Assembly: GCA_964404275.1 (NCBI GenBank) | Contig: CAYOJH010000002.1 | Span: 19,042-83,041, forward strand | Direction: 5' to 3' | DNA from: an uncultured Gammaproteobacteria bacterium | GTDB lineage: Bacteria > Patescibacteriota > Patescibacteriia > SG8-24 > DYFX01 | DNA length: 64,000 nt | Shown here: positions 3,942 through 58,793 of the stretch, in pieces | Layout of the letters: each line of letters begins with the position of its first letter | Position numbering within the stretch: position 1 is the stretch's first letter | The notes under the pieces: model-generated | What the model saw: only the letters and a program-made list of their open reading frames with translations | Databases searched by the model: none | Told to the model about the DNA's origin: nothing | Translations under genes and position numbers: made by a program

Positions 3942-5243
3942 ATGTCGACACTCCGCGAGAAAGCCAAGCGCGTGCTGGCCTGGTCCCAGACCTATGCCAA
4001 AACCGACATGGTCTATGTGGCCAAGAGCGGTTTTTGGACCACGCTGAATTTCGCGGTCGGCGGCGCGGTCGCGCTGCTGCTCGCGGCCGCTTTCGCCAAC
4101 CTGCTGCCGAAAGAAACCTACGGTACCTATAAATACATCCTGTCGATCGCCGGCGCCTTCGGTTTCCTGTCGCTGACCGGCATGAACACGGCGGTGACTC
4201 GCGCGACCGCGCGCGGTCATGACGGCGCGCTGCCGGAATCGGTCCGGATCCAGCTGCGTTGGAATCTGATCTACACCGCGGTCCTGACCTGCTTGGGCGC
4301 GTACTACCTGGTGCGCCACGGCGCGTTCGCGCTCGGCGTTTCGCTGTTGATCCTGGGCGCGCTGACGCCGCCGGCCTGGGCCTTCGCCACCTTCTCGTCG
4401 CTCTTGGCCGGCAAGAAGGATTTCAAACGAAGTGCCAAATATTCGATCCTCGGCTCGCTGCTGTACCTGGCGATCATGCTGATCGGCATCGTCTTCGGCC
4501 GCTCGCCGACGTGGCTGGTCGTCGCGTACGCGATCAGCAACTGCCTCGTGTACGCGCTGCTCTACGCGCTGACGATCGCCAGATACAAGCCGAAAGGCAT
4601 GGACGCGGCCGAGCGCCGCGAGATGCTCGACTTCAGCAAGCACCTCAGCGTCGTGAACGTCTTCGCCACGATCGCGCAGCAGATCGACAATATCGCGGTC
4701 TTCAAATTCCTGGGGCCCGCGCAGCTGGCCGTCTATGCCTTCGCCGGACTCATGCCCGACCGGATCCGCAATTTCGGCAAGACGGGCATGGGCATCATCA
4801 TGCCCAAGCTTTCGGCCAAGAATCTGCCGGAGGTCATGCGCTCGTTTCGTTTGCGTCTCGTCCAAAGCTTCGCGATCGGCACGCTCTTCGCCGTCGGCTA
4901 CGTGCTGATCGCGCCGCCACTCTTCCGTCTGTTATTTCCGCGCTACGTCGACGCGATCTTGTATTCGCAACTGATCGCCCTGAACCTGGTCTTCACGGTG
5001 CCGATCACCTACATGGCCTACGTCCACCAATCCCAGAAGCTGATTCCCGAGATTTACGCGACCAGCCTGGCGTCAAACGGGTTGCGCATCGCGCTCATGC
5101 CGATCGGCGGCGCACTTTTCGGCATCCTGGGCGTGATCGCGGGCAAGTTGGTCGGCAACATGTTCGGCGTGCTCATCAGCGCCCTGGCGCTGAGGCGGGC
5201 GCTCAAGCGGCACGCGGTTGCCAGTTCTGAGCCCGTCGCGTAG
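3942..5243 (+). CDS. Polysaccharide flippase, Wzx-like (MOP superfamily)
   Basis: About 12 predicted TM segments. Paralogous to 16379-17671 (shared GFW...FANLLPKETYGTYKY region). Confidence 0.75.
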   Translation: MSTLREKAKRVLAWSQTYAKTDMVYVAKSGFWTTLNFAVGGAVALLLAAAFANLLPKETYGTYKYILSIAGAFGFLSLTGMNTAVTRATARGHDGALPESVRIQLRWNLIYTAVLTCLGAYYLVRHGAFALGVSLLILGALTPPAWAFATFSSLLAGKKDFKRSAKYSILGSLLYLAIMLIGIVFGRSPTWLVVAYAISNCLVYALLYALTIARYKPKGMDAAERREMLDFSKHLSVVNVFATIAQQIDNIAVFKFLGPAQLAVYAFAGLMPDRIRNFGKTGMGIIMPKLSAKNLPEVMRSFRLRLVQSFAIGTLFAVGYVLIAPPLFRLLFPRYVDAILYSQLIALNLVFTVPITYMAYVHQSQKLIPEIYATSLASNGLRIALMPIGGALFGILGVIAGKLVGNMFGVLISALALRRALKRHAVASSEPVA

Positions 5244-6593: not shown

Positions 6594-9344
6594 ATGTCCA
6601 TCTTCCGGAAGATTTTCGGCGATCCGAACGCCCGCGTCGTCGCCAACCTCCAACCCGTCGTCGACCGGATCAACGCGCTTGAAAAAGACATCCAAGCGCT
6701 CTCCGACGACGGCCTGGCGGCCAAAACCGGCGAACTCAAAGAGCGTTTGAAGAACGGCGCGACGCTTGATGATGTCCTGCCGGAAGCGTTTGCGTTGGTC
6801 CGCGAAGCCGCGCGCCGGACGCTCGGGCAGCGCCACTACGACGTTCAGCTGGTCGGCGGCATGGTCCTGCATGAAGGCGGCATCGCCGAAATGCGGACCG
6901 GTGAAGGCAAAACGCTGGTCGCCACCACGTCCGTCTATTTGAATGCGCTCGAAGGCAAGGGCGTGCACGTCATCACCGTCAACGATTATCTCGCGCGCCG
7001 CGACGCCGGTTGGATGGGCCGCGTCTATCATCGCTTGGGCCTCTCGACGGCCTGCATCAACCATCAGTCCGCCTACCGCTACGATCCGCTGTACAAGGCG
7101 GCGGCGAAGCCGGAAGAGGGCGCGGCGGTCGAAATCAAAGCCGTCGACACGACGGCCGCGTTTCATGTCGACATGGACGAGATGCGCCCGATCGGGCGCA
7201 AGGAGGCCTACCTGGCCGACATCACCTACGGCACCAACAACGAATTCGGTTTCGATTACCTGCGCGACAACATGGTGACCGTGCCGGATCAGGCGGTCCA
7301 GCGCGAACTGCACTACGCGGTCGTCGATGAAATCGACTCGATCTTGATCGACGAAGCGCGCACGCCGCTCATCATTTCCGCGCCGGCCGAGGAATCTTCG
7401 GAGCAGTATTATCATTTCGCCGACGTCGTCCGTCCGCTTGAAGAGGGGAAGGATTACAACGTCGATGAAAAGATGCGCGGCGTGGCCTACACGGAAGACG
7501 GCCAGAACCGCGTTTCGAAAGCGCTGAACAACGATCCGTGGAAGACGTCGGACATCATCACGATCTATCACTTGGAAGCCGCGTTGCGCGCCAAGGCGCT
7601 CTTCCATCTCGACAAGGAATACGTCGTGCGCGACGGCGAAGTCGTGATCGTCGACGAATTCACCGGCCGCCTCATGCCGGGCCGCCGCTATTCGGAAGGC
7701 CTGCATCAGGCCATCGAGGCCAAAGAAAAAGTCAAGATCCAGCGCGAAAGCCGCACGCTCGCGACCGTCACGTTCCAAAATTATTTCCGTTTGTACAAAA
7801 AATTGTCGGGCATGACAGGCACTGCGGCCACCGAGGCCGAGGAATTCGCCAAGATCTACAAGCTCGAAGTCACCACCATCCCGACCAACAAGCCGGCCCA
7901 GCGCCTCGACCTGACGGATCGCGTCTACAAAAACCATTCGGGAAAGTTCGCGGCCGCGGTGCAGGAAATCAAGGCGCGTCACGAAAAAGGCCAGCCCGTC
8001 CTGGTCGGCACGATTTCGATCGACCAGAACGAAGAACTTTCGCATCTCCTCGAACTCGAAGGCGTGCCGCATCAGGTGCTGAACGCCAAGAACCATGAGC
8101 GCGAAGGCGAAATCATCGCGCAAGCCGGCCGCAAGAGCGGCGTGACGATCGCCACCAACATGGCCGGCCGCGGCGTCGACATCATCTTGGGCGGCAACCC
8201 GTACGAGGCGGCCAAGGCCGCGGAAGTCCGCGAGCTCGGCGGCCTGATGGTCATCGGCACCGAGCGTCATGAATCGCGCCGCATCGACAACCAGCTTCGC
8301 GGCCGCGCCGGCCGCCAGGGCGATCCGGGCACCTCGCAATTCTACGTCTCGATGGAAGACGATTTGATGCGCATCTTCGGTTCGGACCGGATGAAGAACA
8401 TGATGGACAAGCTCGGCATTCCCGACGACATGCCGATCGAGAACGGCCTGGTCTCCAAGTCGATCGAATCCGCGCAGCACAAAGTGGAAGGCCACAACTT
8501 CGACATCCGCAAGCACCTCCTCGAATACGACGACGTGCTCAACAAGCATCGCGAAGGCTTCTATCGTCGCCGCAAGGAAATGCTGTTGTCGGACGGCGAA
8601 ACCGTCCGGACGAGCGTCTTCGAGATGATCGAGCGCGAAGTCGAACAGGTGACGCTCTTCCACACGCCGACCGAAAACGAAGCGGAGTGGAACCTCGAGG
8701 AAATCTACGAGGTCATGTCGACGATCTTCCCCGTGCCGAACGAGACGCGCATCAAGATGGACGGCATCCACACCGCTCTCGAGGCGAAAGAGGACAAGCT
8801 GGCCGGCATCCACGCCCGCACGGCCATCATCCAATACCTGACCGGCATCGCCCGCGCCCAGTTCGACAAGATCGAGCGCGAGATCGGCCTCGAGATGCTG
8901 ACGCAGGTCTGCCGCGGCTTGTCGCTGCGCGCCATGGACAACTTCTGGATCGAGCATCTCGACGCGATCGATCACCTGCGCAAAGGCATCGGCCTGCGTG
9001 GCTACGGCCAGCGCGATCCGCTCGTCGAATACAAGAAGGAGGCCTATCGCATGTGGAACGAATTGCTCCATGCGATCGAGCGCCAGATCGTCTACGCCGT
9101 CTACAAAGTCCAAGTCGCCGCCCAATTCGCGCCGTCGCTTTTGGAACAGGGTGGCATCACCGTCAGCGCGCCGGCCAAAGAATCCCCCTTCGCCAAGGCT
9201 TCGGGGGACGAGGGGTTGTTTGATAAAGCGCCAGCCACGAGCATCGACGCAGGCTTGCCCGCCGTAGCTTCAGCGAAGGTGGGCCGCAACGACCCGTGCC
9301 CGTGCGGCTCGGGAAAGAAGTATAAGAAGTGCCACGGGGCCTGA
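6594..9344 (+). CDS. secA: Preprotein translocase ATPase SecA
   Basis: Full-length 916 aa with DEAD-like motor motifs and the C-terminal zinc-binding tail [14 protein letters not shown]. Confidence 0.97.
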
Positions 9345-15532: not shown

Positions 15533-16382
15533 AGATCATCTTCATGCCATAGGAGGGGATTTGGAGAAACGAGTCGTTGACTTCCACGAGGTTAAATCCA
15601 TTGCGTTGCATGACACGGCAAAGGGTCTCGCGGCTATAATGGTACAAATGACCGAGGCTGATCGCATCCATGCGTGAGCCGTACTTTTGTACGTCGGGCA
15701 CTTCAAGAATGAGGAAGCCATGATCGGAAATGCGCTCGTGCAGACTCGCCAACAAACGGTCAGGATCGCCGATATGCTCGAACACATGCCAAAGCGTGAT
15801 CGCATCGAATGTCCTGCGCGGAACGGCGTCCAACGAAGGGTGGATAACGAGATCGGTCGAAGCGGAACCCAAAAAGCGGCTTCCTGGTTCCACGCCCTGG
15901 ACGTCAACGCCCGGCCAGGCTTTCTTAAGGAGGTGAAGAAACATGCCCTCCGCGCAGCCATAGTCGAGGATGACCGGTTCTGCGGTCTTGAAAAGGCCGC
16001 GTTGACGGAGATGGAGGACATACCTCACGTTGCGCGCGGCGACAACGGCGGTTTTTCGGAAATGAGAAGCACCGGGCCAAAGCCAGCCGCTTTCAATGCC
16101 TCGATACAAGTGGCTGCGGTAATAGCGCTCGATGAAGCGCGGCGTCGGCATCGGGTTTTCCATCACGAATCCACACTGACAGCGCACCGTCGCTATCTGC
16201 AGGCCGTATTTGTCTCGGTCATGCAATAACGTAAAGACGCCCCCCCCACACAGGAGGCAAGGGCGAAGCTCCGTTTCCAGCACGCGCATGATCGCATGCC
16301 GATACCAACAACGGATGACGGCGTGCAGCATGCGCTCGATTTTCGCGACGAGCCGGCCGGCCACAGGAAACGTTTTCCTCAT
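15492..16382 (-). CDS. SAM-dependent methyltransferase with N-terminal Cys4 zinc-finger
   Basis: CLLCGGG...CQCG followed by motif I ILDYGCAEGMF and LWHVFEHIGDP. Shares a 4-nt overlap with the upstream flippase. Confidence 0.7.
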   Translation of the reverse strand: MRKTFPVAGRLVAKIERMLHAVIRCWYRHAIMRVLETELRPCLLCGGGVFTLLHDRDKYGLQIATVRCQCGFVMENPMPTPRFIERYYRSHLYRGIESGWLWPGASHFRKTAVVAARNVRYVLHLRQRGLFKTAEPVILDYGCAEGMFLHLLKKAWPGVDVQGVEPGSRFLGSASTDLVIHPSLDAVPRRTFDAITLWHVFEHIGDPDRLLASLHERISDHGFLILEVPDVQKYGSRMDAISLGHLYHYSRETLCRVMQRNGFNLVEVNDSFLQIPSYGMKMIFTPVSQKAPAASQ

Positions 16383-17671
16383 AGGGAACGCGCTGCGCCA
16401 TGTTCTGCGCGTCGGCTGACGCGTTCGGCGTAGAAGAGCCCGAGCGCCAAACCGCTGAATTTAGAGATGATTTTGGCGTAAGCCACGCCCATCAAACCTA
16501 ACGGTTTGATGAGCAGCAGGAGGAAAACGATGAAAACGATCGAAGGACCGTTGCCGGCGATGTACCTGCCGCGGATATCGTGGTGCGCCGTGATGAAGGC
16601 CTGCGGAAGATGCGACGGCACGATGAAGATCTGGGCGGCGAGGAGCACGATCGCGTAGCGCGCCGCTTCCTGGTAGGCGGGAAAGACCAGCCGGTAGGCC
16701 CAGGGCGCGAGCAGCATCGCGATGCCGGAAAGCGGCGCGGCGACGATCATCGTGATGATCGTTTTGCGGAGCAGCGGAGCGAAAGCCTTGGCTGGCGATT
16801 GCTCCGCGAATTTCGGCATGGCCAGCGTTTTCAAATTCGAGGTCAGGCCGTCGACCTGTTCAGGCAAGGCCTGGGCCAGTGCGTAAACTGCCGTCGGCGC
16901 TGCGCCGAAGAATTGGAAAATCAGGATCTTGTCGAGGTTGACCGTCAAACTGCCGATCACGTTCAAAAAGCTGGCGTGTGCTCCGAAACGCATCGCCCCT
17001 GGATCCACCGTGTCGTTGGAAGTGTGGCGGGCGATCGTCAGGCGGTAGGCCGCGTACATGGCCAGGGCGGTGGACCCGACCGAAACCGTCACCAGGATCG
17101 CCGGATTGTGCGGCAGGAACAGCAAGGCCAGGACGAGTGCGGTGGCCGGCGCCGCCTGGCGCAAGGTGTTGTATACCGCGGCGGTTTTAAAAACTTTCTT
17201 ACCGCGCAAGAAGTGCGAGAACAGACTCGCGGACTGGGTGATCGGCAGGCAGATCCCGATCGCGACGAGCGCCCAAGCGAGCTTCGTATCGGCGTGCCAA
17301 AAGTACCAGCCGGCGCCGAGGAGGGAAAATAAACCGATCAGCAGATTCCATCGGAAGGATCGGTGCGCCAAAAAGCGCAGCGTGCCGTCCTGCCCGGTGG
17401 CGGCGGAGCGCACCAGCGCTTCTCCCAGGCCGGTCAAGGTGAAGCCGGTCAAAGCGCCGCCGATCGACATCAAATATTTGTAATACCCGTAGGCCTCCTT
17501 GGAGGCCAAATTGGCGAACAGGATGGCGACGACCAGCGACATGAGCGATCCCGCCAGCGAGCCGAAAGCGAGCCAAAAACCGCCCTTGGCGGCGTAGAGA
17601 ACGTCGGTCCGGAAGATCGGCTGCAGCCGAAGCAGCAGCGCTTTCGAGCGGTTTTTCAGGGCCTCGAACAT
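16379..17671 (-). CDS. Polysaccharide flippase, Wzx-like (MOP superfamily)
   Basis: Polytopic membrane protein, paralogous to 3942-5243. Confidence 0.7.
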   Translation of the reverse strand: MFEALKNRSKALLLRLQPIFRTDVLYAAKGGFWLAFGSLAGSLMSLVVAILFANLASKEAYGYYKYLMSIGGALTGFTLTGLGEALVRSAATGQDGTLRFLAHRSFRWNLLIGLFSLLGAGWYFWHADTKLAWALVAIGICLPITQSASLFSHFLRGKKVFKTAAVYNTLRQAAPATALVLALLFLPHNPAILVTVSVGSTALAMYAAYRLTIARHTSNDTVDPGAMRFGAHASFLNVIGSLTVNLDKILIFQFFGAAPTAVYALAQALPEQVDGLTSNLKTLAMPKFAEQSPAKAFAPLLRKTIITMIVAAPLSGIAMLLAPWAYRLVFPAYQEAARYAIVLLAAQIFIVPSHLPQAFITAHHDIRGRYIAGNGPSIVFIVFLLLLIKPLGLMGVAYAKIISKFSGLALGLFYAERVSRRAEHGAARSL

Positions 17672-20870: not shown

Positions 20871-20927
20871 GCCTCCGTATTGTGGATGGTGAGAACGTTC
20901 TGATCTGATTTGACTACGCTTTCCCGT

Positions 20928-22997
20928 ATGACCACACGTCGCGGCCGACCGTTTTTTTATTACGTCTCGCTGCCATTCGCCTGGATCGGCCGGGGGATCG
21001 CGCGCCTCTTCAAACCCACGCCGCGCGGCAAGATCCGCTGGGCGGTCTTGAGCGTGCTGATCCTGGCCGCTCTGGCCGGTTCCCTGGCGTATCCGCAGCC
21101 TTGGGATCGCGCCGCCGACGCTTGGAACGCCAAGGTCGTTGCGTCGTTCAGATTGCCGAACGCCTTGAAGATCCCGCACTTCAAGGACATTCCGTATCGC
21201 CTCGGCCTCGACTTGCAGGGCGGCACGCATCTTGTTTACGAGGCCGACGTCAAGGACATCCCTGATGCGGACCGCGCCAACGCGATGGAAGGCGTGCGCG
21301 ACGTGATCGAGCGGCGCGTGAACGCGTTCGGCGTGTCCGAACCGGTCGTTCAGACCAACAAAGCCGGCGACCATTGGCGCATCATCGTCGAGCTGGCCGG
21401 CGTCAAGGACGTCAACCAGGCCATCACGATGATCGGCGAGACCCCGATCTTGGAATTCAAGGAACAGAATGACGTCAGCCAGATTCCCTTGACGGCCGAT
21501 CAGCAGAAGGAACTGGACGCGAAAAACGCCGTGATCAAAAAGCAGGCGACCGACGCGTTACACGCGGCGCTGACCAACCCGAATGATGCTTCTCTTCAAT
21601 GGGACAAGCTCGGCCCGGTCACCGAGGCGCAATATCCGGAACTTTGGAAATGGGCCGACACGCATCCGGGCGTGAAGATCGACGCCGCGCTGGTCGAAGA
21701 CCAGGACGGCTGGAACGTGCTGCGCGTCAACGGCAAGGACACCTCGCAGCTCGAAGATCACGCGAGTCATATTTTGATCTGCTATCAGGGCGCCCAAAGC
21801 TGCCAAGAGCCGCTCACTAAACAGCAGGCTTTGGATCAGATCACCAAGCTGCGCGCCGAAGTCACGCCGCAGAACTTCGCCGAAAAGGCCAAGGCCAACT
21901 CGACCGACGGATCGGCCCAGACGAACTCCGGCGACCTCGGCTGGTTCACCAAGGACACGATGGTCAAGGAATTCGCCGACGCCGTCTTCGCCATGAAGAC
22001 GGGCGATATTTCGCAGCCGGTCGAATCGCCGTTCGGTTACCACCTGATCTGGAAACAGGGCGAGCGTCCGTCCGTCCGTTACGACATGGATCGTCTTCAC
22101 TTCAAGAAAGCCACGGCGGCTGACGTCGCTCCGGCGGCCGATCCCTGGAAGAACACGGGCCTTTCGGGCAAGCACGTGGCGCACGCCCAAGTGGAATTCG
22201 ATAACACCACCAGCCAGCCGCAGGTGCTCCTGACCTTCAACGACGAAGGCAAGAAGCTCTTCGGCGAGATCACCAAGCGCAACGTCGGCAAGCTCGTCGC
22301 GATCTATCTCGACGGCCAGCCGATCTCCATTCCGCGCGTCCAGCAGGAGATCGACGACGGCAATGCCGTGATCTCCGGCAGCTTCGATATCAAGGAAGCC
22401 AAGCTGCTCGCCCAGCGCCTGAACGCCGGCGCCTTGCCGGTCCCGATCAAGCTGCTTTCGCAGGAGACGATCGGCGCTTCGCTCGGCCAGGATTCGCTGA
22501 CCAAGAGCCTCAAAGCGGGCTTCTACGGCTTCCTGATCGTCGTGCTGTTCATGATCCTGTATTACCGCCTGCCGGGCCTCCTGGCCTCCTTGGCGCTCGC
22601 GATGTACACGGCCTTCTCGCTCGCCGTCTTCAAGCTCCTCGGCATCACGCTGACGCTCTCGGGCATCGCCGGCGTGATCCTCTCGATCGGCATGGCCGTC
22701 GACGCCAACATCCTGATCTTCGAGCGCATGAAGGAAGAACTGAAGAACGGCCGTCCGCTCGATTCGGCCGTCAACGAAGGCTTCAAGCGCGCTTGGACGT
22801 CGATCCGCGACTCCAACATCTCCTCGCTGTTGACTTGCGCGATCCTGTATTCCTTCACCTCGAGCTCGGTTCGCGGCTTCTCGGTCACGCTCGCGCTCGG
22901 TATCGTCATCTCGCTGTTTTCCGCCATCACCGTGACGCGCTCGCTGCTCCGTTTCGTCGGCCCGTGGGCGATGAAACATCGCTGGCTCTTCAAGTAA
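20928..22997 (+). CDS. secD: Protein translocase subunit SecD carrying an inserted parvulin-type PPIase domain
   Basis: SecD N-terminal TM, P1 head and C-terminal six-TM RND-like domain (GIAGVILSIGMAVDANILIFER). The ORF-track start at 20910 is a TTG; the first ATG is 20928. Confidence 0.9.
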   Translation: MTTRRGRPFFYYVSLPFAWIGRGIARLFKPTPRGKIRWAVLSVLILAALAGSLAYPQPWDRAADAWNAKVVASFRLPNALKIPHFKDIPYRLGLDLQGGTHLVYEADVKDIPDADRANAMEGVRDVIERRVNAFGVSEPVVQTNKAGDHWRIIVELAGVKDVNQAITMIGETPILEFKEQNDVSQIPLTADQQKELDAKNAVIKKQATDALHAALTNPNDASLQWDKLGPVTEAQYPELWKWADTHPGVKIDAALVEDQDGWNVLRVNGKDTSQLEDHASHILICYQGAQSCQEPLTKQQALDQITKLRAEVTPQNFAEKAKANSTDGSAQTNSGDLGWFTKDTMVKEFADAVFAMKTGDISQPVESPFGYHLIWKQGERPSVRYDMDRLHFKKATAADVAPAADPWKNTGLSGKHVAHAQVEFDNTTSQPQVLLTFNDEGKKLFGEITKRNVGKLVAIYLDGQPISIPRVQQEIDDGNAVISGSFDIKEAKLLAQRLNAGALPVPIKLLSQETIGASLGQDSLTKSLKAGFYGFLIVVLFMILYYRLPGLLASLALAMYTAFSLAVFKLLGITLTLSGIAGVILSIGMAVDANILIFERMKEELKNGRPLDSAVNEGFKRAWTSIRDSNISSLLTCAILYSFTSSSVRGFSVTLALGIVISLFSAITVTRSLLRFVGPWAMKHRWLFK
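21759..22064 (+). other. Parvulin (PpiC-type) peptidyl-prolyl isomerase domain embedded in the SecD periplasmic head
   Basis: HASHILI...SGDLGWFTKDTMVKEFADAVFAMKTGDISQPVESPFGYHLIWK matches the parvulin signature (HIL, GGDLGWF, MV..F, S.PV.S.FGYHLI). Confidence 0.7.
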
Positions 22998-23001
22998 ACG
23001 T

Positions 23002-23919
23002 ATGCTGCGCATCACCCAACATCGCGCGAAATTCTTCATCCTCTCCGGACTGGCCATGACGCTGTCGCTCGCGGCCTGGCTTTTCTGGGGCCTCAAGCCC
23101 GGCATCGACTTCACCGGCGGTTCGCTCTTGGAGCTCTCGTTCTCGCAGAATCCGCCGCCCATTTCGGCCATCGTCGATACGGCCAAAACCTCGCTCGGCA
23201 ACGCCCAGGAAGAAGTCACGGCTCAGCCGATCGGCGCGAACGGCGTCGTCCTGCGCATGCCGCCGATCGAAGAGGGCGCCCACCAGAAGCTCGTGACCGA
23301 TCTCAAGAGCGCCTACGGCAAGGACGGCAACGCGCTTGAAGAAAAGCAATTCCAGTCGATCGGACCCGTGATCGGCGCCGAACTCCAGCAAAAAACGATC
23401 TACGCCGTCGTCGGCGCGATCCTGGCGATCGTCCTGTTCATCACCTACGCCTTCCGCAAGGTTTCGTATCCGGTCGCGTCTTGGAAATACGGCGTCTGCA
23501 CGATCGTCGCGCTCTGCCACGACGTGCTCATCCCGGTCGGCGTCTTCTCGGCGCTCGGCCATTTCCGCGGCGTCGAAGTCGGCGCCTGGGTCGTGACCGC
23601 GCTCTTGACCGTCCTCGGCTTCTCGGTGCACGACACGATCGTCGTGTTCGACCGCATCCGCGAAAACCTGGCGCACGCCGGACGGATGTCGTTCGAGGAC
23701 GTCGTCAACCGCAGCATGAACGAGACGCTCGGCCGCTCGATCAATACCTCGCTGACCGTCATGCTGGTCTTGCTCGCGACTTACGCGTTTGGAGGCGCTT
23801 CCATCAAGGACTTCATCCTGACCATGATCGTCGGCGTCGGCGTCGGCACCTACTCCTCGATCTTCGTGGCCTCGCCGCTCCTGGTCTCCTGGCACCTGCG
23901 CTCGCAGAAAAAGCGCTAG
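23002..23919 (+). CDS. secF: Protein translocase subunit SecF
   Basis: Six-TM SecF with a periplasmic domain and the conserved TM4-6 motifs (TIVVFDRIREN, SINTSLTV). Confidence 0.92.
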   Translation: MLRITQHRAKFFILSGLAMTLSLAAWLFWGLKPGIDFTGGSLLELSFSQNPPPISAIVDTAKTSLGNAQEEVTAQPIGANGVVLRMPPIEEGAHQKLVTDLKSAYGKDGNALEEKQFQSIGPVIGAELQQKTIYAVVGAILAIVLFITYAFRKVSYPVASWKYGVCTIVALCHDVLIPVGVFSALGHFRGVEVGAWVVTALLTVLGFSVHDTIVVFDRIRENLAHAGRMSFEDVVNRSMNETLGRSINTSLTVMLVLLATYAFGGASIKDFILTMIVGVGVGTYSSIFVASPLLVSWHLRSQKKR

Positions 23920-24005
23920 AAAAAGAGGAAAAAAGCCTCTTCCAAAAATCCGAAAAATATGCTACGCTTCCGCCGACACGGGAGCGTCGCATTTTTTATC
24001 CGTCC

Positions 24006-25331
24006 ATGCCGCAGATCGTCATCGACCTTTCGCCTTTGTACGCGCTGATGGACAAGTCCCCGCTCCAGATCGCCTGGACGGTTTTCGCGTACGGCGGCTG
24101 GATTCCGTTCGTTTGGGTGCTGTGGAAAGGCTTATCGGATCTCTGGCTCCTGTCCCGCCAGGAAAAATACGCGCCGACCATCACTTACATCGTGCTCAGC
24201 ATCAACATCCCCAGGATGAACGAGCAGAGCCCGAAGGCCGTCGAACACATCTTCACGCACATCGCCGGCACGTATTCCTCGCCGAACTGGAAGGAAAAGT
24301 GGATCCAGGGCAAGTTCACGCCGGCCTTTTCGTTCGAATACGCTTCGCTCGAAGGCTACACGCAATTCATCGTGCGCTGCCCGATCCAGTTCCGCGACCT
24401 GATCGAAGCCTCGATTTTTTCGCAGTATCCGGACGCCGAGATCGCCGAGATCGCCGATTACACCAAGAGCGTGCCGCACAGCTTCCCCGATCCCGAATGG
24501 GACTGCTGGGGCACCGAATTCGTCCTCTCGAAGCCGAGCGCCTATCAGCTTCGGACCTACCCGGAATTCGAGCACGAGCTCTCCGGCGAGCTGAAGGATC
24601 CGCTCTCGACGCTGCTCGAGACGCTTTCGCGCCTGCGGAAAGGGGAACAGGTCTGGATCCAGCTTTTGGTCTATCCGCGCGATCAGTCCTGGATGCTGGA
24701 CTCCGCCAAAGTCGCCGCCAAAATGAAGGGCAAGGAAATCAAGAAGAAGCCGCCGGCTTGGCAGCACTTCGTCGAGGAAATGTTCAGCCTGGTCACCATG
24801 GGCGTGAGCCAGGTGGTCGGCGTGGGCGGCGAGGCCGAGAAAAAGCCGGAAGCGCGGCCGGAGAACAAGCTGTCGACCATGTCGACGGGCGAAAAAAAGG
24901 TGCTCGAGAAGATCGAAGAGAAAATGTCCAAGATCGGCTTCGGCGTGAAAATGCGCTTCGTCTATGTCGGCAAGCGCGACGTCTTCCGCAAGGGCCCGAT
25001 GATCTCGATGGTCCGCGGCGCGCTCGGGCTGTTCGGCTCGCTCGACGGCAACAGCTTCAAGAACTACGGCAAAGCCGCGCCCAAGACCGATTATTTCTGG
25101 CAGCGCTGGAGCGCCGATGAGAAGAAAACCAGGATTATCAGGCGTTTTTCGGGCCGCTCGTCCGCCGGCGCCGACCGTTTCATCTTGAACGTCGAAGAAC
25201 TGGCCAGCCTCTGGCACTTCCCGCAGATCCTGGTCAAGGCGCCGCTGCTCAAGAAGGTCGAATCGCGCAAGGTCGAACCGCCGTTCTCCTTGCCGGAAGT
25301 GCCGCCGGGGCTGCCTGAACCGAACGCTTGA
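24006..25331 (+). CDS. Hypothetical single-pass membrane protein, partner of the downstream ATPase
   Basis: N-terminal TM (LQIAWTVFAYGGWIPFVWVLW) followed by a roughly 400-aa soluble domain. Start set at the first ATG after the secF stop. Its stop overlaps the TTG/ATG region of the next gene. Confidence 0.55.
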   Translation: MPQIVIDLSPLYALMDKSPLQIAWTVFAYGGWIPFVWVLWKGLSDLWLLSRQEKYAPTITYIVLSINIPRMNEQSPKAVEHIFTHIAGTYSSPNWKEKWIQGKFTPAFSFEYASLEGYTQFIVRCPIQFRDLIEASIFSQYPDAEIAEIADYTKSVPHSFPDPEWDCWGTEFVLSKPSAYQLRTYPEFEHELSGELKDPLSTLLETLSRLRKGEQVWIQLLVYPRDQSWMLDSAKVAAKMKGKEIKKKPPAWQHFVEEMFSLVTMGVSQVVGVGGEAEKKPEARPENKLSTMSTGEKKVLEKIEEKMSKIGFGVKMRFVYVGKRDVFRKGPMISMVRGALGLFGSLDGNSFKNYGKAAPKTDYFWQRWSADEKKTRIIRRFSGRSSAGADRFILNVEELASLWHFPQILVKAPLLKKVESRKVEPPFSLPEVPPGLPEPNA

Positions 25332-25336
25332 GCGCT

Positions 25337-27241
25337 ATGCCTCCGTATCCCGCCGTGCCGTACAACCACGATCACGAGAACGAGGTCATTCCGTTCGCCG
25401 AGACGAATTTCCGCGGCCAGAACCGCGCGTTCGGCATCAAGACGGACGACCGGCGCCGCCACGTCTACGTGATCGGCAAGACGGGCATGGGCAAAACGAC
25501 CCTGCTCGAAAATTTCGTGATGTCCGACATCTACGCCGGGCATGGCTTGTGCTACATCGATCCGCACGGCGACACGGCCGACAAGATTCTGGATTTCATC
25601 CCGCCGTGGCGCATCAACGACGTCGTCTATTTCAATCCGGCCGACATGGAATTTCCGGTCGGTTTCAACATCCTCGAAATCGCGAACGAGAATCAGAAGC
25701 ACCTGGTCGCTTCGGGCTTGATGGGCGTCTTCAAGAAGATCTGGCCGGACGTCTGGTCGGCCCGCATGGAATACATCCTGCTGAACTGCGTCTTGGCGCT
25801 GCTCGACACGCCGGGCTCGACGCTCCTCGGCATCAGCCGCATCCTGGCCGACAAGGATTTCCGCAAGAAAATCGTCGAGAACGTCAAGGACCCGGTCGTC
25901 AAGGGCTTCTGGCTCAACGAGTTCGCCAAATACACCGACAAATTCGCGTCGGAAGCGATCGCGCCGGTCCAGAACAAGGTCGGCCAGTTCCTGTCGAACA
26001 CGATCATCCGCAACATCGTCGCGCAGACCAAGTCGACGCTCAACGTCCGCGAGATCATGGACTCGCGGAAAATTTTCATCGTCAATCTCTCGAAAGGCCT
26101 GGTCGGCGAAGACTCCTCGAAGCTGCTCGGCGGCATGCTGATCACGCGCCTGCAGCTCGCGGCCATGGAGCGCGTCGACATGCCGGAAAAGGATCGCCAG
26201 GACTTCTACCTGTACGTCGACGAGTTTCAGAACTTCGCGACGGAATCCTTCGCCAACATTTTGTCCGAAGCCCGCAAGTACCGCTTGGCGCTGATCACGG
26301 CGCATCAATATATCGAGCAGCTCGAAGAAGAAGTCGCGGCCGCGGTCTTCGGCAACGTCGGCACGATCATCTCCTTCCGCGTGGGCGCCAACGACGCCGA
26401 GCATCTCGCCAAGGAATTCGCGCCGACCTTCGTCGAAGAAGACATCATCAACCTGGCCAAATACGAGGTCTATCTCAAGCTGATGATCGACGGCGTGGCC
26501 TCCTCGCCGTTTTCGGCCAAGACGCTTTCGCCGATCGCCAAAAGAACCGAAAGCCGCGAGAAGGTCGTCAACGCTTCGCGGCAGCGGTACGCGCTCACGC
26601 GCGAAGACATCGAAACCAAGGTCAACACCTGGGCCGGCTTCGACGAGGCGACCGGAACCTTCGTCGGCACGGCTCGCGCGGGCGCGACGCCGGGCGTCAC
26701 GGGCGCCGCGCCTCGGGCCGCCACGCCGGAAGGCACGCCGTTCAAGGAAACTTCCGATCGGCAATACACCGCCAATTGCTCGCGCTGCAATAAAGAATTG
26801 CATTTGAAATTCCCGCCCGATCCGAACCGGCCTTTCTACTGCAAAGAGTGCCTGCCGTTCGCGCGGGCCGAAGCCGCCGCCGCGCCCGCGAAGCCCGCGC
26901 CTCGTCCACCTGCGCCTTCAAGTCCGCCGCGCCCCGCCCCCAAAGCCGCCATCCCGCCGCCGCGCCCGGCTCCCGCCCCTGCCCCGCGCCCCTCGGCGCC
27001 TCCCAAAGCCGTCGAACGCCCGCTCCCGCCTCCGCCGAAGCCGGGCATGTTCGGCGGCAAGATCCGCATTGTGACGGGGGAGCAGGAGCCCGAGGCTCTC
27101 GCGCCGGCCGCCCAGGAGAGCCCTAAGCCGCTGCCCACGCCGCCCAGGCCGCCCGCGCCGCCTCGGCTGCCCCCGCTTTCTCAAAAAGTCCCGCCATCAG
27201 CCCAAAAACCGCCCTCTGAAACGCCTTTGCCTTCGGCGTAA
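25337..27241 (+). CDS. VirD4/TrwB-like (FtsK/HerA-superfamily) P-loop ATPase with C-terminal zinc ribbon and proline-rich tail
   Basis: Walker A VIGKTGMGKTT, YIDPHGD (compare T4CP DPKGE), Walker B FYLYVDEFQNF, EARKYRLALITAHQ (RKYG...Q motif of coupling proteins and HerA). Also CSRCNKE...YCKEC and a roughly 125-aa Pro-rich tail. No N-terminal TM helices. A TTG at 25328 is an alternative start. Confidence 0.7.
   Translation: MPPYPAVPYNHDHENEVIPFAETNFRGQNRAFGIKTDDRRRHVYVIGKTGMGKTTLLENFVMSDIYAGHGLCYIDPHGDTADKILDFIPPWRINDVVYFNPADMEFPVGFNILEIANENQKHLVASGLMGVFKKIWPDVWSARMEYILLNCVLALLDTPGSTLLGISRILADKDFRKKIVENVKDPVVKGFWLNEFAKYTDKFASEAIAPVQNKVGQFLSNTIIRNIVAQTKSTLNVREIMDSRKIFIVNLSKGLVGEDSSKLLGGMLITRLQLAAMERVDMPEKDRQDFYLYVDEFQNFATESFANILSEARKYRLALITAHQYIEQLEEEVAAAVFGNVGTIISFRVGANDAEHLAKEFAPTFVEEDIINLAKYEVYLKLMIDGVASSPFSAKTLSPIAKRTESREKVVNASRQRYALTREDIETKVNTWAGFDEATGTFVGTARAGATPGVTGAAPRAATPEGTPFKETSDRQYTANCSRCNKELHLKFPPDPNRPFYCKECLPFARAEAAAAPAKPAPRPPAPSSPPRPAPKAAIPPPRPAPAPAPRPSAPPKAVERPLPPPPKPGMFGGKIRIVTGEQEPEALAPAAQESPKPLPTPPRPPAPPRLPPLSQKVPPSAQKPPSETPLPSA
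26868..27241 (+). repeat. Proline-rich low-complexity coding repeat (PAPRP/PPRP units) in the ATPase tail
   Basis: Repeated AP(R/K)PP units in the translation and GCGCCCGC/CCGCCGCG units in the DNA. Confidence 0.6.
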
Positions 27242-37269: not shown

Positions 37270-39072
37270 ATGACCACGAATGAAATCCGCTCGAAATTCC
37301 TGGATTTTTTCAAAGAAAAGGGCCACGCGATCATCCCTTCGGCCTCTTTGATTCCCGAAAACGATCCGACGGTGCTGTTCACGACGGCGGGCATGCATCC
37401 GCTCGTGCCATACCTGCTCGGCGAACCGCATCCGGCCGGCCGGCGCTTGGCCGACGTGCAGAAGTGCGTCCGCACCGGCGACATCGACGAAGTCGGCGAC
37501 AACCGCCACCTCACGTTTTTTGAGATGCTCGGCAACTGGTCGCTCGGCGATTACTTCAAGCGCGAGGCGATCACCTGGTCGTTCGAATTCCTGACCTCGC
37601 CGCGCTGGTTGAATCTCGATCCAGGACGCATCTACGTCACCGTCTTCGAAGGCGATGCCGATGCGCCGCGCGACTTGGAATCCGTCGCGATCTGGCAGGA
37701 CGCGTACCAAACGCGCGGCATTGAAGCGCGCTTCAACGAGCGCATCTTCGCCTATCCGAAAGACAAGAACTGGTGGGGACCGGCCGGCATGACCGGTCCG
37801 TGCGGTCCCGACACGGAAATTTTTTGGGACACCGGCCGTCAGCACGATCCGCGCCACGGCGCCGAGTGCCATCCGAACTGCGACTGCGGACGCTTCATCG
37901 AGATCTGGAACAACGTCTTCATGGAGTACAACAAGTCGGCGGCGGGCGCCTTCGAGCCGCTCGCGCAGAAGAACGTTGACACCGGCATGGGTCTGGAACG
38001 CGTCGTGGCGGTGCTGCAAGGCAAGTCGACGGTCTTCGACACGGAAAATTTTCAGGAGATGCTGGCCGCCGCCGGCGCGATCTGCGGCAAGACGTACGGC
38101 AAAAATGAAGACGACGACCGCGCCATGCGTATCGTCGTCGATCACGTCCGCACGGCCGTCTTCATGATCGGCGATCCGCGCGGCATCACGCCGTCGAACG
38201 TCGATCAGGGCTACATCCTGCGCCGCTTGATCCGCCGCGCCGTTCGTTATGGACGCCAGCTCGGCATCGAAGGCTTCTTCACGTCCAAAATCGCCGAGAA
38301 GGTGATCGAACTTTTCCGCGACGCGTATCCCGAGCTTGAAAAGAACCGCGATCGCGTGATCGGCGAACTCGACGCCGAAGAGGACAAATTCATGCGCACG
38401 CTCCAGAACGGCCTGCGCGAAGTCGAGAAGGTCAAGAAAGACCTGGAAGCCTCGCCGACCATTCCGGGCGAGACGGCCTTCTATTTGTACGAATCGTTCG
38501 GCTTTCCGAAAGAATTGACCGAGGAAACCGTCGGAAAGAAGGTGGACGAAGCCGAATGGCAAAAAGCCATGAAGGCCCACCAGGACCTTTCGCGCCAAGG
38601 CGCCGAGAAGAAGTTCAAGGGCGGCTTGGCGGACCACTCCTGGGAGACGACGCGCCTTCACACCGCCACGCATCTTTTGCATAAAGCGCTCCGCAACGTC
38701 CTCGGCGCGCACGTCGAGCAGAAAGGCTCCAACATCACCGCCGAGCGTCTGCGTTTCGATTTCTCGCATCCGAACAAGATGACGCCGGAAGAACTCAAGA
38801 ACGTCGAAGACATGGTCAACGAGGCCATCGTCCGCGATCTCCCCGTCCACTTCGAAGAGATGACCGTCGGCGAAGCCAAGCGCGGGGGAGCGATCGGCCT
38901 GTTCGAAGACCGTTACGGCGACAAGGTCAAAGTCTACGTCGTCGGCGATTATTCCAAGGAAATCTGCGGCGGCCCGCACGTCCAGCACACGGCCCAGCTC
39001 GGACGCTTCAAAATCTTGAAGGAGGAAGCGTCGTCGGCCGGCGTGCGCCGCATTAAAGCGATCGTTGAATGA
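37270..39072 (+). CDS. alaS: Alanine--tRNA ligase, short form lacking the C-Ala/DHHA1 domain
   Basis: Class II catalytic core ([23 protein letters not shown]), tRNA-recognition domain, and editing domain (HTATHLL...CGGPHV). Ends at 600 aa. Confidence 0.92.
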
Positions 39073-45350: not shown

Positions 45351-45447
45351 CCGAACCTCCGAATGGGTCCGGACTGAGCATAGCCATGACCGAGGCCGAC
45401 CGTCAAGGTTGATATTTTGCCTTGGAAATGGGAAAATAAAGGCGGAT

Positions 45448-58773: not shown

Positions 58774-58776
58774 ATG

Positions 58777-58785
58777 TGCTAGAAT
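58777..58785 (+). promoter_or_regulatory. Extended -10 element TGCTAGAAT 8 nt upstream of the G8-gene ATG (leaderless transcript likely)
   Basis: TGn-TAGAAT read from the sequence. No Shine-Dalgarno. Confidence 0.35.
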
Positions 58786-58793
58786 GCGTCCAT

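What the first reader, a model, noticed from the sequence alone, without database searches (positions are those of the whole stretch)
21759..22064. Complete parvulin PPIase domain inserted into the periplasmic head of SecD
SecD here is 689-695 aa against the usual 400-620. Residues about 284-385 match the parvulin/PpiC signature: HIL...GDLGWF...MV.EF..A.F....G.IS.PV.S.FGYHLI.

The insertion lies between the N-terminal TM and the C-terminal six-TM RND-like domain, inside the P1 head region. A prolyl isomerase fused in-line to the translocon subunit thought to pull or fold emerging preproteins would be a notable architecture. It is the first thing a substrate would meet on the trans side. The roughly 100 residues preceding it (about 190-283) could be a SurA/PrsA-like N-terminal chaperone module.
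Basis: partly seen in the sequence, partly recalled or inferred. Interest (0 to 1): 0.65.

Follow-up and report, generated by a model that had tools for sequence, protein, structure and literature searches.

The report
SecD with built-in parvulin foldase cassette
The protein-export motor subunit SecD of this uncultured Patescibacteria (candidate phyla radiation) bacterium carries a prolyl-isomerase (parvulin) cassette spliced into its outward-facing substrate-grabbing domain, a conserved but apparently undescribed way of wiring protein folding directly to protein export.

Summary
One uninterrupted secD gene (window 20928-22997, 689 aa; secF follows at 23002) encodes a complete parvulin domain at residues 274-376. 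It scores far above Pfam cut-offs (Rotamase_3 E=2.6e-24) and every catalytic position is kept.

The domain lies in the extracytoplasmic P1 domain, between the P1-base strand and the P1-head core. It is not a chimera: hundreds of Patescibacteria SecD proteins share it, with conserved synteny and dN/dS of about 0.1-0.2.

The roughly 90 residues before the domain are not a SurA/PrsA helical chaperone module. They are a second, degenerate parvulin that is circularly permuted: its first strand lies after the active domain, so the active domain is nested inside it.

Relatives carry one, two or three or more parvulin units. The single-unit form is a permuted but catalytically complete parvulin. An 80%-identical relative lacks the cassette with clean boundaries.

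Best reading: a translocon-tethered foldase/holdase, the covalent counterpart of PrsA, PpiD-SecDF and the Mycoplasma Sec "dome". Enzyme activity and geometry are inferred, not shown. I found no paper describing this. It is a new variant of known kinds, of moderately high interest.

The parts
20928..22997 (+). secD coding sequence (689 aa from ATG; an in-frame TTG at 20910 would give 695 aa)
   Evidence: ORF list. TIGR01129 secD 390 bits against cut-off 244. 100% identical 689-aa database protein P0001 and 689-aa orthologues.
21024..21092 (+). TM1 of SecD (about residues 33-55), preceded by a lineage-variable N-terminal helix (residues 9-27)
   Evidence: AF2 helices H9-27 and H32-54. Aligned to the region upstream of the P1 domain of solved SecDF structures.
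21192..21470 (+). P1-base, N-terminal half (residues 89-181; includes Pfam SecD_1st and the strand ILEFKE that precedes the cassette)
   Evidence: Pfam SecD_1st 2e-17. Aligned to T. thermophilus SecDF 32-117. Most conserved extracytoplasmic region (78% mean identity).
21495..22118 (+). Whole inserted cassette (about residues A190-A397, 208 aa): two nested parvulin units
   Evidence: Boundaries inferred by aligning with the clean 115-aa indel between P0149 (with cassette) and P0187 (without), which are about 80% identical on both flanks. Replaces T. thermophilus SecDF 118-159. AF2 of the cassette alone: pLDDT 92.5, pTM 0.72.
21483..21731 (+). ParvA: degenerate, circularly permuted pseudo-parvulin (residues 186-268). 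Long alpha1 helix, then beta2-alpha4-beta3-beta4. About 17 residues (alpha2/alpha3 and the catalytic loop) are deleted in this lineage, and Asn263 replaces the second catalytic His.
   Evidence: No significant Pfam hit in the window copy (Rotamase_2 E=0.034). The orthologous segment in relatives is a parvulin lacking beta1 (Rotamase_3 6.8e-17, profile 25-116). Under purifying selection (dN/dS 0.15-0.21).
21747..22055 (+). ParvB: canonical, complete parvulin PPIase domain (residues 274-376).
   Evidence: Rotamase_3 2.6e-24 and Rotamase 6.2e-22. Best solved relatives: SurA P2 and PrsA. Foldseek: SurA P2 4g2p, TM 0.83, rmsd 2.1 A. In 121 orthologues: H281 120/121, H372 121/121, D/E327 121/121, M345 119/121, F349 and F369 121/121.
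21768..21770 (+). His281, first catalytic His of ParvB (Pin1 His59 position; motif ASHILIC)
   Evidence: H in 120 of 121 orthologues. Aligned to SurA P2 ARHILL. The Pin1 equivalence comes from established parvulin alignments (own knowledge).
21780..21803 (+). Cys285...Cys292 (C-x6-C) in the beta1-alpha1 loop of ParvB: putative extracytoplasmic disulfide
   Evidence: C/C in 119 of 121 orthologues. The two exceptions lost both cysteines together. The disulfide itself is inferred.
21906..21908 (+). Asp327 (Pin1 Cys113 / PrsA Asp position) in NSTDGS
   Evidence: D in 69 and E in 52 of 121 orthologues.
22041..22043 (+). His372, second catalytic His of ParvB (FGYHLI)
   Evidence: H in 121 of 121 orthologues.
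22074..22109 (+). C-segment VRYDMDRLHFKK (residues 383-394): displaced beta1 strand that completes ParvA. Arg389 sits at the first-His position.
   Evidence: Family consensus Y.V.RILFKK resembles parvulin beta1 V.ASHILIK. Moving it in front of ParvA in silico extends Rotamase_3 coverage from 29-116 to 13-116 in an orthologue. His at this position co-occurs with His at the ParvA beta4 position (15 H/H against 5 mixed). AF2 shows a continuous 24-residue strand running from ParvB beta4 into this segment.
22152..22442 (+). P1-head core (residues 409-505)
   Evidence: Pfam SecDF_P1_head 5e-28, profile 18-114. Aligned to T. thermophilus SecDF 160-253. 71% mean identity.
22443..22976 (+). TM2-TM6 RND-type membrane domain, including the TM4 Asp (Asp592, nt 22701-22703; equivalent to T. 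thermophilus Asp340)
   Evidence: SecD_SecF_C, MMPL and ACR_tran hits. The alignment AVDAN / AVDGN places Asp592 on Asp340. D592 and N594 are invariant.
23002..23919 (+). secF, 4 nt downstream of the secD stop codon. Keeps the TM10 Asp (VHDTIVV) and TM11 Arg (TLGRS).
   Evidence: TIGR00966 275 bits. Translation compared with T. thermophilus SecDF 637-671 as printed.

Best explanation
This is a genuine secD-secF operon of a Patescibacteria (Parcubacteria-type) chromosome. SecD has acquired a roughly 208-residue cassette at the variable junction between the P1-base strand and the P1-head core.

The cassette has two parvulin units arranged like nested dolls:
- The outer unit, ParvA, is circularly permuted (alpha1...beta4, with its beta1 strand supplied last). 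In this lineage it is catalytically dead and shortened.
- The inner unit, ParvB, has canonical order and all catalytic and proline-pocket residues. It sits in the beta4-beta1 hairpin of ParvA.

The SecDF proton-motor residues are intact. The most likely function is therefore the normal PMF-driven SecDF pulling cycle with a membrane-tethered prolyl isomerase/holdase held at the trans-side exit of the translocon. ParvB would bind and isomerise Xaa-Pro bonds of emerging unfolded chains. ParvA would serve as a rigid stalk or extra binding surface.

This is the covalent equivalent of lipoprotein PrsA in Firmicutes, of PpiD contacting SecD in E. coli, and of the PrsA-like dome on SecDF in Mycoplasma.

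Shown here: architecture, conservation, selection, modularity. Inferred: PPIase activity, substrate contact, position relative to SecYEG.
For: Domain identity and order:
- Pfam, NCBIfam; alignment to solved SecDF and to SurA/PrsA; AF2; cassette pLDDT 92.5; Foldseek: SecDF; SurA P2 TM 0.83.

Real gene:
- All 120 best 90%-identity clusters share the architecture.
- 73 of the best 150 50%-identity representatives carry parvulin inserts.
- Conserved synteny secD-secF-DUF8128-TrwB-like.
- dN/dS 0.10-0.23 in both units.

Catalytic competence of ParvB:
- Near-invariant His281, Asp/Glu327, Leu337, Met345, Phe349, Phe369 and His372.

Permutation and nesting:
- Single-unit relatives read alpha1...FGYHIIKK-linker-ASHILIK followed by the P1 head, with both His and the Asp/Cys kept in 70-74 of 78 sequences.
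- In-silico re-permutation restores full-length Pfam coverage (Rotamase 8-97 becomes 1-97, +5 bits).
- His/His co-occurrence between ParvA beta4 and the C-segment.

Modularity:
- Clean 115-aa presence/absence between proteins 80% identical.

Motor intact:
- Asp592 in SecD; Asp and Arg in SecF.

Functional precedent:
- Mpn444 PPIase cross-links to SecD (10.1101/2024.09.05.611430).
- The Mycoplasma dome of PrsA-like PPIC proteins integrates SecDF/SecYEG, with substrate density at the active PPIC domain (10.1101/2025.04.25.650208).
- The P1-head cavity contacts precursors (PMC5974789).
- No other parvulin ORF in the 64-kb window.
Against: - No activity, binding or genetic data exist.
- I could not read model coordinates, so the position of the cassette relative to the P1-head cavity and SecYEG is unknown. 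I also cannot say whether it rides on the head or the base.
- PPIase activity is dispensable in several relatives: SurA works without its parvulin domains (cited in PMC8669966). That the PpiD parvulin is inactive rests on my own knowledge.
- The cassette is absent from an 80%-identical SecD, so it is accessory.
- At least one Patescibacteria genome encodes a separate PrsA-like protein (L014). The fusion is therefore not simply a replacement for a lost PrsA.
- dS is near saturation, so dN/dS values are rough.
- The His/His co-occurrence is not corrected for phylogeny.
Confidence: 0.62

Rival explanations
1. The cassette is a non-catalytic substrate-capture or holdase extension of the P1 head, or simply a structural stalk. 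On this reading the conserved parvulin pocket serves only to bind peptides, and prolyl isomerisation is irrelevant, as in PpiD and the SurA P1 domain.
For: ParvA has lost both His residues and part of the fold, yet is still under purifying selection. SurA chaperone function survives deletion of its parvulin domains (reference cited in PMC8669966). The number of units varies from 1 to 3 or more, many of them degenerate.
Against: ParvB keeps every catalytic and proline-pocket residue in 119-121 of 121 orthologues. The single-unit permuted form keeps them in about 90% of 78 sequences. Such strict conservation is not seen in known inactive parvulins. At least one catalytically complete unit appears to be retained in each of the 121 double-unit sequences and in about 90% of the 78 single-unit sequences; the multi-unit forms were not scored.
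Confidence: 0.25
2. One reading: a full SurA/PrsA-like chaperone (N-terminal helical chaperone module plus parvulin) is inserted in SecD.
For: NCBIfam PrsA and SurA models and the solved HP0175/PEB4/PrsA structures align beyond the parvulin core.
Against: There is no SurA_N or PrsA NC-domain hit. The preceding segment is homologous to a parvulin in orthologues (Rotamase_3 6.8e-17). AF2 shows one long helix (the parvulin alpha1) followed by beta-strands, not a helical bundle. The overlaps with PrsA/HP0175 have rmsd 11-14 A outside the parvulin core.
Confidence: 0.03
3. Artefact: an assembly chimera or frameshift joins secD to a separate PPIase gene.
For: None found.
Against: The parvulin is flanked on both sides by SecD P1 segments in a single frame. 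The identical architecture appears in more than 120 clusters from NCBI, JGI, ENA and Logan assemblies, including complete genomes and contigs up to 0.9 Mb. Both units are under purifying selection.
Confidence: 0.01
4. The cassette is dedicated to a specific client system rather than to general secretion. One candidate is the conserved neighbouring DUF8128 protein and TrwB/TraG-like ATPase; another is pilins or surface-layer proteins.
For: secD-secF-DUF8128-TrwB-like synteny is conserved across loci whose cassettes are only 34-80% identical.
Against: Synteny alone is weak evidence. SecDF is a general factor. Nothing links parvulins to TrwB-like ATPases. I did not test whether cassette-less SecD genes have the same neighbours.
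Confidence: 0.05

Closest known systems
Canonical SecD / SecDF (T. thermophilus 3AQP/5YHF, D. radiodurans 5XAN, E. coli SecD)
   Same: Same TM1-P1-TM2-6 layout. P1-base and P1-head core align (T. thermophilus 32-117 and 160-424). The proton-relay Asp in TM4 and the Asp/Arg in SecF are kept. secF is adjacent.
   Different: T. thermophilus residues 118-159 are replaced by a 208-residue double-parvulin cassette. Canonical relatives have only 6-42 residues at this junction, and E. coli has about 130 unrelated residues there. No described SecD has an enzymatic domain there, as far as the searched literature shows.
PrsA (Bacillus/Staphylococcus lipoprotein foldase)
   Same: An extracytoplasmic, membrane-tethered parvulin of the non-phospho-specific type with an Asp at the Pin1-Cys113 position. 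ParvB resembles the PrsA PPIase domains (2jzv TM 0.81, 6xd8 TM 0.90). The proposed role is the same: folding of proteins as they leave the Sec channel in a cell without an outer membrane.
   Different: PrsA is a separate lipoprotein dimer whose parvulin is inserted in a helical NC chaperone domain. Here there is no NC domain, the tether is SecD itself, and the host domain is another (permuted) parvulin.
SurA (E. coli; N-P1-P2-C)
   Same: Tandem parvulins, one inactive (P1) and one active (P2). SurA P2 is the closest solved sequence and structure relative of ParvB.
   Different: SurA is soluble, its parvulins are sequential and in canonical order, and chaperoning resides in the N/C core. Here the units are nested, the outer one is circularly permuted, and there is no core domain.
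PpiD-YfgM at SecYEG/SecDF (E. coli, Vibrio)
   Same: A membrane-anchored parvulin protein positioned at the periplasmic face of the translocon. [quoted passage not shown]
   Different: The association is non-covalent, with its own TM anchor and extra chaperone domains. The PpiD parvulin is catalytically inactive (own knowledge), whereas ParvB keeps all catalytic residues.
Mycoplasma pneumoniae Sec 'dome' (Mdp444/436/489 PrsA-like PPIC lipoproteins on SecDF-SecYEG)
   Same: A genome-reduced, outer-membrane-less bacterium in which PPIC-domain proteins are physically integrated with SecDF to couple translocation to folding. Only some PPIC copies keep catalytic residues.
   Different: That is a separate giant lipoprotein trimer forming a chamber. 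Here one or two small parvulin units are fused in-line into SecD, and there is no evidence of a chamber.

Membership tests
SecD (protein translocase subunit; RND-type SecDF) | Full-length match to the curated SecD model above its cut-off | tested here: met
   TIGR01129 390.3 bits against cut-off 244.4, spanning residues 98-680.
SecD (protein translocase subunit; RND-type SecDF) | TM1, then a large extracytoplasmic P1 (base plus head), then a five-helix bundle | tested here: met
   Pfam SecD_1st, SecDF_P1_head and SecD_SecF_C. AF2 helices and strands. Foldseek top hits are SecDF 5yhf/5xan/3aqp.
SecD (protein translocase subunit; RND-type SecDF) | Conserved proton-relay residues (TM4 Asp in SecD; TM10 Asp and TM11 Arg in SecF) and an adjacent secF | tested here: met
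   AVD(592)AN aligns with T. thermophilus Asp340 and is invariant. SecF at 23002-23919 has VHD and LGR at the T. thermophilus Asp637 and Arg671 positions.
SecD (protein translocase subunit; RND-type SecDF) | PMF-dependent stimulation of protein export | not testable with these tools
   Needs genetics or biochemistry.
Parvulin (PpiC-type) PPIase: ParvB, residues 274-376 | Match to the Pfam Rotamase models above the gathering score | tested here: met
   Rotamase_3 86.5 bits (cut-off 22.5), Rotamase 78.8 (21.7), Rotamase_2 48.9 (27).
Parvulin (PpiC-type) PPIase: ParvB, residues 274-376 | Parvulin fold (beta-alpha3-beta-alpha-beta2) | tested here: met
   AF2 cassette pLDDT 92.5. Foldseek: SurA P2 4g2p TM 0.83 and rmsd 2.1 A; PrsA 6xd8 TM 0.90; Pin1 TM about 0.8.
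Parvulin (PpiC-type) PPIase: ParvB, residues 274-376 | Catalytic and pocket residues (two His, Asp/Cys at the Pin1-113 position, Leu/Met/Phe proline pocket) | tested here: met
   H281, D327, L337, M345, F349, F369 and H372 are all present and 98-100% conserved in 121 orthologues. The mapping onto Pin1 numbering rests on my own knowledge of parvulin alignments.
Parvulin (PpiC-type) PPIase: ParvB, residues 274-376 | Measured cis/trans isomerase activity | not testable with these tools
   Requires an enzyme assay.
Parvulin: ParvA, residues 186-268 plus C-segment 383-394 | Significant match to a parvulin model | tested here: inconclusive
   Window copy: only Rotamase_2 E=0.034, 15.4 bits, below cut-off. 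Nothing is found with shorter constructs. The orthologous segment in relatives is significant (Rotamase_3 6.8e-17 to 5.8e-8, profile about 25-116). Homology is therefore by descent, through alignment A2.
Parvulin: ParvA, residues 186-268 plus C-segment 383-394 | Catalytic histidines | tested here: not met
   Asn263 and Arg389 occupy the two His positions, and a deletion of about 17 residues removes the alpha2/alpha3 catalytic loop. Only 15 of 121 orthologues have His at both positions.
[quoted passage not shown] | Helical N (and C) chaperone domain flanking the parvulin | tested here: not met
   No SurA_N, SurA_N_2/3 or related hit at E<=0.1-1. AF2 shows a single alpha1 helix followed by strands. 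Alignments to SurA/PrsA/HP0175 outside the parvulin core have rmsd 11-14 A.
[quoted passage not shown] | Independent polypeptide with its own signal peptide, lipobox or TM anchor | tested here: not met
   The parvulins are internal to SecD, flanked by P1 segments.

The most novel reading that the evidence does not exclude
The cassette sits on the hinge or neck of the P1 head, the part of SecDF that swings with proton flow. The parvulin could therefore be moved mechanically through the SecDF power stroke. That would make this an energy-coupled extracytoplasmic foldase/holdase that alternately grabs, isomerises and releases the emerging chain. It would be a natural answer to how folding outside the cytoplasm, where there is no ATP, can be driven. 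In addition, the single-unit form would be the first natural circular permutant of the parvulin fold that is still an active enzyme.
Probability: 0.15. Interest if true: 0.85.

Novelty: new variant of a known kind. Interest (0 to 1): 0.62.

Why it matters
- Work on E. coli (PpiD-SecDF; SurA at the Sec machinery) and on Mycoplasma (the PPIC "dome" on SecDF) points to chaperones and PPIases docking on SecDF. These contacts are transient or need in-cell tomography to see.
- A natural in-line fusion is genetic (Rosetta-stone) evidence that a parvulin and the SecD P1 domain work on the same substrate at the same place.
- It also offers a compact, stoichiometric construct for structural and single-molecule work on how the P1 head hands over substrates.
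- The family documents modular evolution: clean cassette presence or absence, one to three or more units, one unit nested in another. It includes what appears to be an undescribed circular permutation of the parvulin fold that keeps all catalytic residues.
- For candidate-phyla-radiation biology, it shows how a small genome packs an envelope-folding function into core secretion machinery.

Tried and rejected
- Chimera or frameshift: rejected.
- SurA_N/PrsA NC module before the parvulin: rejected.
- Pfam on the window's ParvA alone, in native or re-permuted order: no hit. Its parvulin ancestry rests on orthologues.
- Exact look-up of P0001's contig: not on record.
- The listing of cluster members for taxonomy of the variant classes: returned no organism names.
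- Model coordinates cannot be read. Strand pairing in the cassette and its orientation on P1 were inferred only from DSSP strings, conservation and co-occurrence.
I could not test whether genomes with the fused SecD lack a stand-alone PrsA. One Patescibacteria genome (L014) does encode a 310-aa PrsA-like protein, but its secD is unknown.
- Literature searches for a prior description found none: SecD+parvulin; SecD+Patescibacteria+isomerase; SecD+PPIase domain+fusion; parvulin+circular permutation; SecD/rotamase/Parcubacteria; SecDF+PpiC. The library lacks most subscription journals.
- The Tsukazaki 2011 structure paper could not be opened, so exact head and hinge residue ranges are not quoted.
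- Rfam and tRNA scans of the window were empty.
Full report
**1. The observation**

The window holds one uninterrupted ORF, 20910..22997 (+), followed 4 nt later by a second ORF, 23002..23919. Composition is even across it.

Pfam places the following on the 695-aa ORF, in order:
- SecD_1st, residues 126-187, E=2e-17
- Rotamase_3, residues 273-380, E=2.6e-24, 86.5 bits against a cut-off of 22.5
- Rotamase, residues 287-380, E=6.2e-22
- SecDF_P1_head, residues 415-511, E=5e-28
- SecD_SecF_C, residues 514-683

NCBIfam calls it SecD (TIGR01129, 390 bits, cut-off 244) and calls the next gene SecF (TIGR00966, 275 bits).

The probable start is the ATG at 20928, giving 689 aa. A 100%-identical 689-aa database protein and the orthologues in L001, L002 and L015 all begin MT(T/N)RRG, and the sequence upstream is not conserved. 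From here on I use the 689-aa numbering.

**2. Not an artefact**

- All 120 best 90%-identity clusters (50-100% identical, 660-735 aa) carry SecD and Rotamase domains together. They come from NCBI, JGI, ENA and Logan assemblies, on contigs up to 0.9 Mb.
- Loci from species-representative genomes, including a complete 1.17-Mb Patescibacteria chromosome and Candidatus Uhrbacteria MAGs, encode 681-689-aa orthologues.
- The gene order secD-secF-DUF8128-TrwB-like ATPase is conserved.
- Nei-Gojobori dN/dS against three orthologues is 0.10-0.23 for the canonical parvulin and 0.15-0.21 for the stretch before it. This indicates purifying selection, though dS is about 1 and near saturation.
- The window is ordinary chromosome: secA, alaS and polysaccharide genes.

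**3. Where the insertion sits**

Against T. thermophilus SecDF, residues 89-179 align with 32-117 and residues 412-676 align with 160-424. The extra sequence therefore replaces T. thermophilus 118-159.

In cassette-less relatives the same junction is only 6-42 residues long. E. coli has about 130 unrelated residues there. It is thus a variable spot between the P1-base strand ILEFKE and the first strand of the P1-head core.

The sharpest mapping comes from two proteins that are about 80% identical on both flanks. P0149 (562 aa) has a parvulin unit and P0187 (446 aa, seen on 7 contigs in four sources) does not. The indel is a clean 115 residues, between ...EFKEQNP.PE.T and D.IDFENWQPWK.TGL.... 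Transferred to the window, the cassette is about A190-A397 (nt 21495-22118).

The site is extracytoplasmic by homology with the known SecD topology. "Inside the head" is better stated as "at the base-to-head junction".

**4. What the cassette is**

*ParvB (residues 274-376)* is a canonical parvulin.
- Its closest solved relatives are SurA P2 and the PrsA PPIase domains.
- The AF2 model of the cassette (pLDDT 92.5, pTM 0.72) superposes on SurA P2 with TM 0.83 and rmsd 2.1 A, and on PrsA with TM up to 0.90.
- In 121 orthologues, His281 is H in 120, His372 in 121, position 327 is D or E in all, Leu337 and Met345 are kept in 119, and Phe349 and Phe369 in 121.
- Two cysteines, C285 and C292, are present together in 119 sequences and absent together in the other 2. 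This suggests a disulfide, which is plausible outside the cytoplasm but is inferred.

*The roughly 90 residues before ParvB* are not a helical SurA/PrsA chaperone module.
- No such family is detected.
- In most orthologues the segment reads ...DF.ALA.EYS.D...K..GGDLGF....G.V...VET..G.NIIKV and scores as a parvulin (Rotamase_3 down to 6.8e-17). It covers only profile positions about 25-116, so the first beta-strand is missing.
- In the window lineage this unit (ParvA) has also lost about 17 residues (the alpha2/alpha3 region) and is no longer detectable on its own.

**5. Circular permutation and nesting**

A scan of 1.84 billion representatives, followed by local HMM dissection, showed that 73 of the best 150 SecD representatives carry parvulin units at this junction. 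They fall into four groups:
- one unit, about 550-610 aa
- two units, about 655-710 aa (the window class)
- SecDF-fused versions, about 1015-1100 aa
- versions with three or more repeats, about 775-940 aa

The single-unit proteins read, after LEFKE: alpha1 helix, DFA.LAKEYSEDPGSK.KGGDLGWF, MVPEFE.A.F, GEIT..LVKT.FGYHIIKK, a linker, ASHILIKTK, and then the P1 head. The beta1 strand with the first catalytic His therefore comes last, which is a circular permutation.
- Among 78 such sequences the beta4 His is kept in 74, the displaced beta1 His in 70, and Asp (or Cys, as in Pin1) at the Cys113 position in 73.
- Moving the C-terminal strand to the front in silico extends Pfam Rotamase coverage from positions 8-97 to 1-97 and raises the score from 85.9 to 91.1 bits. 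Rotamase_3 goes from 28-115 to 12-115 and from 99.4 to 105.6 bits.

In the two-unit proteins, the segment after ParvB (consensus Y.V.RILFKK; VRYDMDRLHFKK in the window) is the equivalent displaced strand of ParvA. Three observations support this:
- Re-permutation extends Rotamase_3 coverage from 29-116 to 13-116 in an orthologue.
- AF2 draws two 24-residue strands, one from ParvA beta4 into ParvB beta1 and one from ParvB beta4 into this segment. The ends of the cassette pair with each other.
- The ParvA beta4 His position and the C-segment His position vary together: H/H in 15 sequences, mixed in 5, neither in 101 (Fisher p = 2e-14, not corrected for phylogeny). Meanwhile the two ParvB histidines are invariant.

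That pattern fits ParvB nested in the beta4-beta1 hairpin of a permuted ParvA. It does not fit two side-by-side permuted units. I could not inspect coordinates, so this topology is well supported but not proven.

**6. How it most likely works**

The SecDF motor looks intact. The TM4 Asp (Asp592, equivalent to T. thermophilus Asp340) is invariant, and SecF keeps the Asp and Arg at the T. thermophilus 637 and 671 positions. The P1-head core is among the best-conserved parts of the protein.

Established work holds that the P1 head has an amphiphilic cavity that contacts precursors and swings between the Super-F, F and I forms to pull chains out of SecYEG (PMC5974789). Independent work shows parvulin-type proteins docking on this machinery:
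- The PPIase Mpn444 cross-links to SecD (10.1101/2024.09.05.611430).
- In Mycoplasma a dome of PrsA-like PPIC lipoproteins integrates SecDF/SecYEG, with substrate density at the one catalytically intact PPIC domain (10.1101/2025.04.25.650208).

The fused cassette is the covalent version of that partnership. I therefore propose a translocon-tethered foldase/holdase:
- ParvB binds and isomerises Xaa-Pro bonds in the emerging chain.
- The dead ParvA acts as a rigid stalk or auxiliary binding surface, as the SurA P1 domain does.

I put about 0.6 on this. The main rival, at about 0.25, is binding without relevant catalysis. The cassette is accessory rather than essential to SecD, since a near-identical SecD lacks it. 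At least one Patescibacteria genome has a separate PrsA-like gene (L014), so "replacement of a lost PrsA" is not established.

**7. Comparison and novelty**

By every testable criterion the protein is a member of the SecD family, and ParvB is a member of the parvulin family. The cassette is not a PrsA/SurA/PpiD-type chaperone, because it lacks the helical substrate-binding domain, although it probably works like one.

Databases annotate these proteins simply as "protein translocase subunit SecD". Six full-text searches found no description of the fusion or of a circularly permuted parvulin. The library omits most subscription journals, so an earlier mention cannot be excluded.

I rate it a new variant of known kinds. 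The components and the functional idea are familiar. The in-line fusion, the permutation, the nesting and the cassette-like modularity appear to be new. Named sources place it in Patescibacteria: Parcubacteria, Uhrbacteria, Kuenenbacteria, Buchananbacteria and Falkowbacteria. A few differently labelled MAGs are probably mis-binned or mislabelled, but I did not check this.

**8. Verdict**

- Observation: confirmed.
- Interpretation: partly supported. The core claim is right, the "SurA/PrsA N-module" is wrong, and the location needed refining.
- Interest: 0.62.

Noticed in passing
window 23990-25331 and 25328-27241 (+); also L015 13076-16300, L002 8491-11691, L008 8573-11983: Directly downstream of secDF lie a roughly 441-aa DUF8128 protein and a roughly 630-aa TrwB/TraG-type coupling-protein-like ATPase. 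In the window copy the ATPase has a Cys-rich zinc-finger motif and a long Pro-rich tail. This neighbourhood is conserved in Patescibacteria loci whose SecD cassettes are only 34-80% identical, so there may be a functional link to secretion.
   Followed up: partly
proteins P0149 vs P0187: Two SecD proteins about 80% identical on both flanks differ by a clean 115-residue presence/absence of the parvulin unit. This indicates a recent gain or loss of the cassette with precise boundaries.
   Followed up: yes
representatives P0180, P0173, P0154, P0230, P0259: Some SecD/SecDF proteins (775-940 aa) carry three or more parvulin-like repeats at the same junction, most of them degenerate. Others (1015-1100 aa) combine the cassette with a SecD-SecF fusion.
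   Followed up: partly
window 21780-21803 (Cys285, Cys292): A C-x6-C pair in the beta1-alpha1 loop of the active parvulin is present in 119 of 121 orthologues and lost only jointly. It is probably a disulfide. It is absent from the single-unit (permuted) forms.
   Followed up: partly
orthologues P0042-P0120 subset: In about 15 of 121 two-unit proteins the outer unit (ParvA) keeps His at both catalytic positions (GHHVVKF plus LRHILVK). Some family members may therefore have two active sites, whereas the window lineage has Asn and Arg there.
   Followed up: partly
window 20952-21008 (SecD residues 9-27): A hydrophobic or amphipathic helix (FFYYVSLPFAWIGRGIARLF), flanked by positive charges, precedes TM1. 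It is conserved only among close relatives, and its role (interfacial helix or extra TM) is unknown.
   Followed up: no
window 6594-9344 (+): secA (916 aa, with all SecA domains and the SEC-C zinc motif) lies 11.6 kb upstream of secDF on the same strand.
   Followed up: no
window 58587-61424 (+): A 945-aa protein with G8 and CEMIP-type beta-helix domains. I recall this combination mainly from eukaryotic hyaluronan-binding or depolymerising proteins (own knowledge, not checked here), which would make it unusual for a small-genome bacterium.
   Followed up: no
window 37270-39072 (+): The alanyl-tRNA synthetase is only 600 aa and ends at the tRNA_SAD domain. From memory, bacterial AlaRS is usually much longer (about 870 aa) and has a C-terminal C-Ala region, which would be missing here; not checked.
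   Followed up: no
L014 5431-6360 (Patescibacteria MAG JBAZIZ010000002.1); L011-L013: Stand-alone PrsA-like proteins of 278-316 aa with a single parvulin domain occur in other genomes, including one Patescibacteria MAG. Separate extracytoplasmic parvulins are therefore not universally absent from the phylum.
   Followed up: no
window 1-64000: There are no tRNA genes and no Rfam family at gathering threshold anywhere in the 64 kb. Several Wzx-type polysaccharide flippase paralogues (3942-5243, 16379-17671, 45334-46878) and an O-antigen-ligase-like gene (49481-51073) point to extensive surface-glycan biosynthesis.
   Followed up: no
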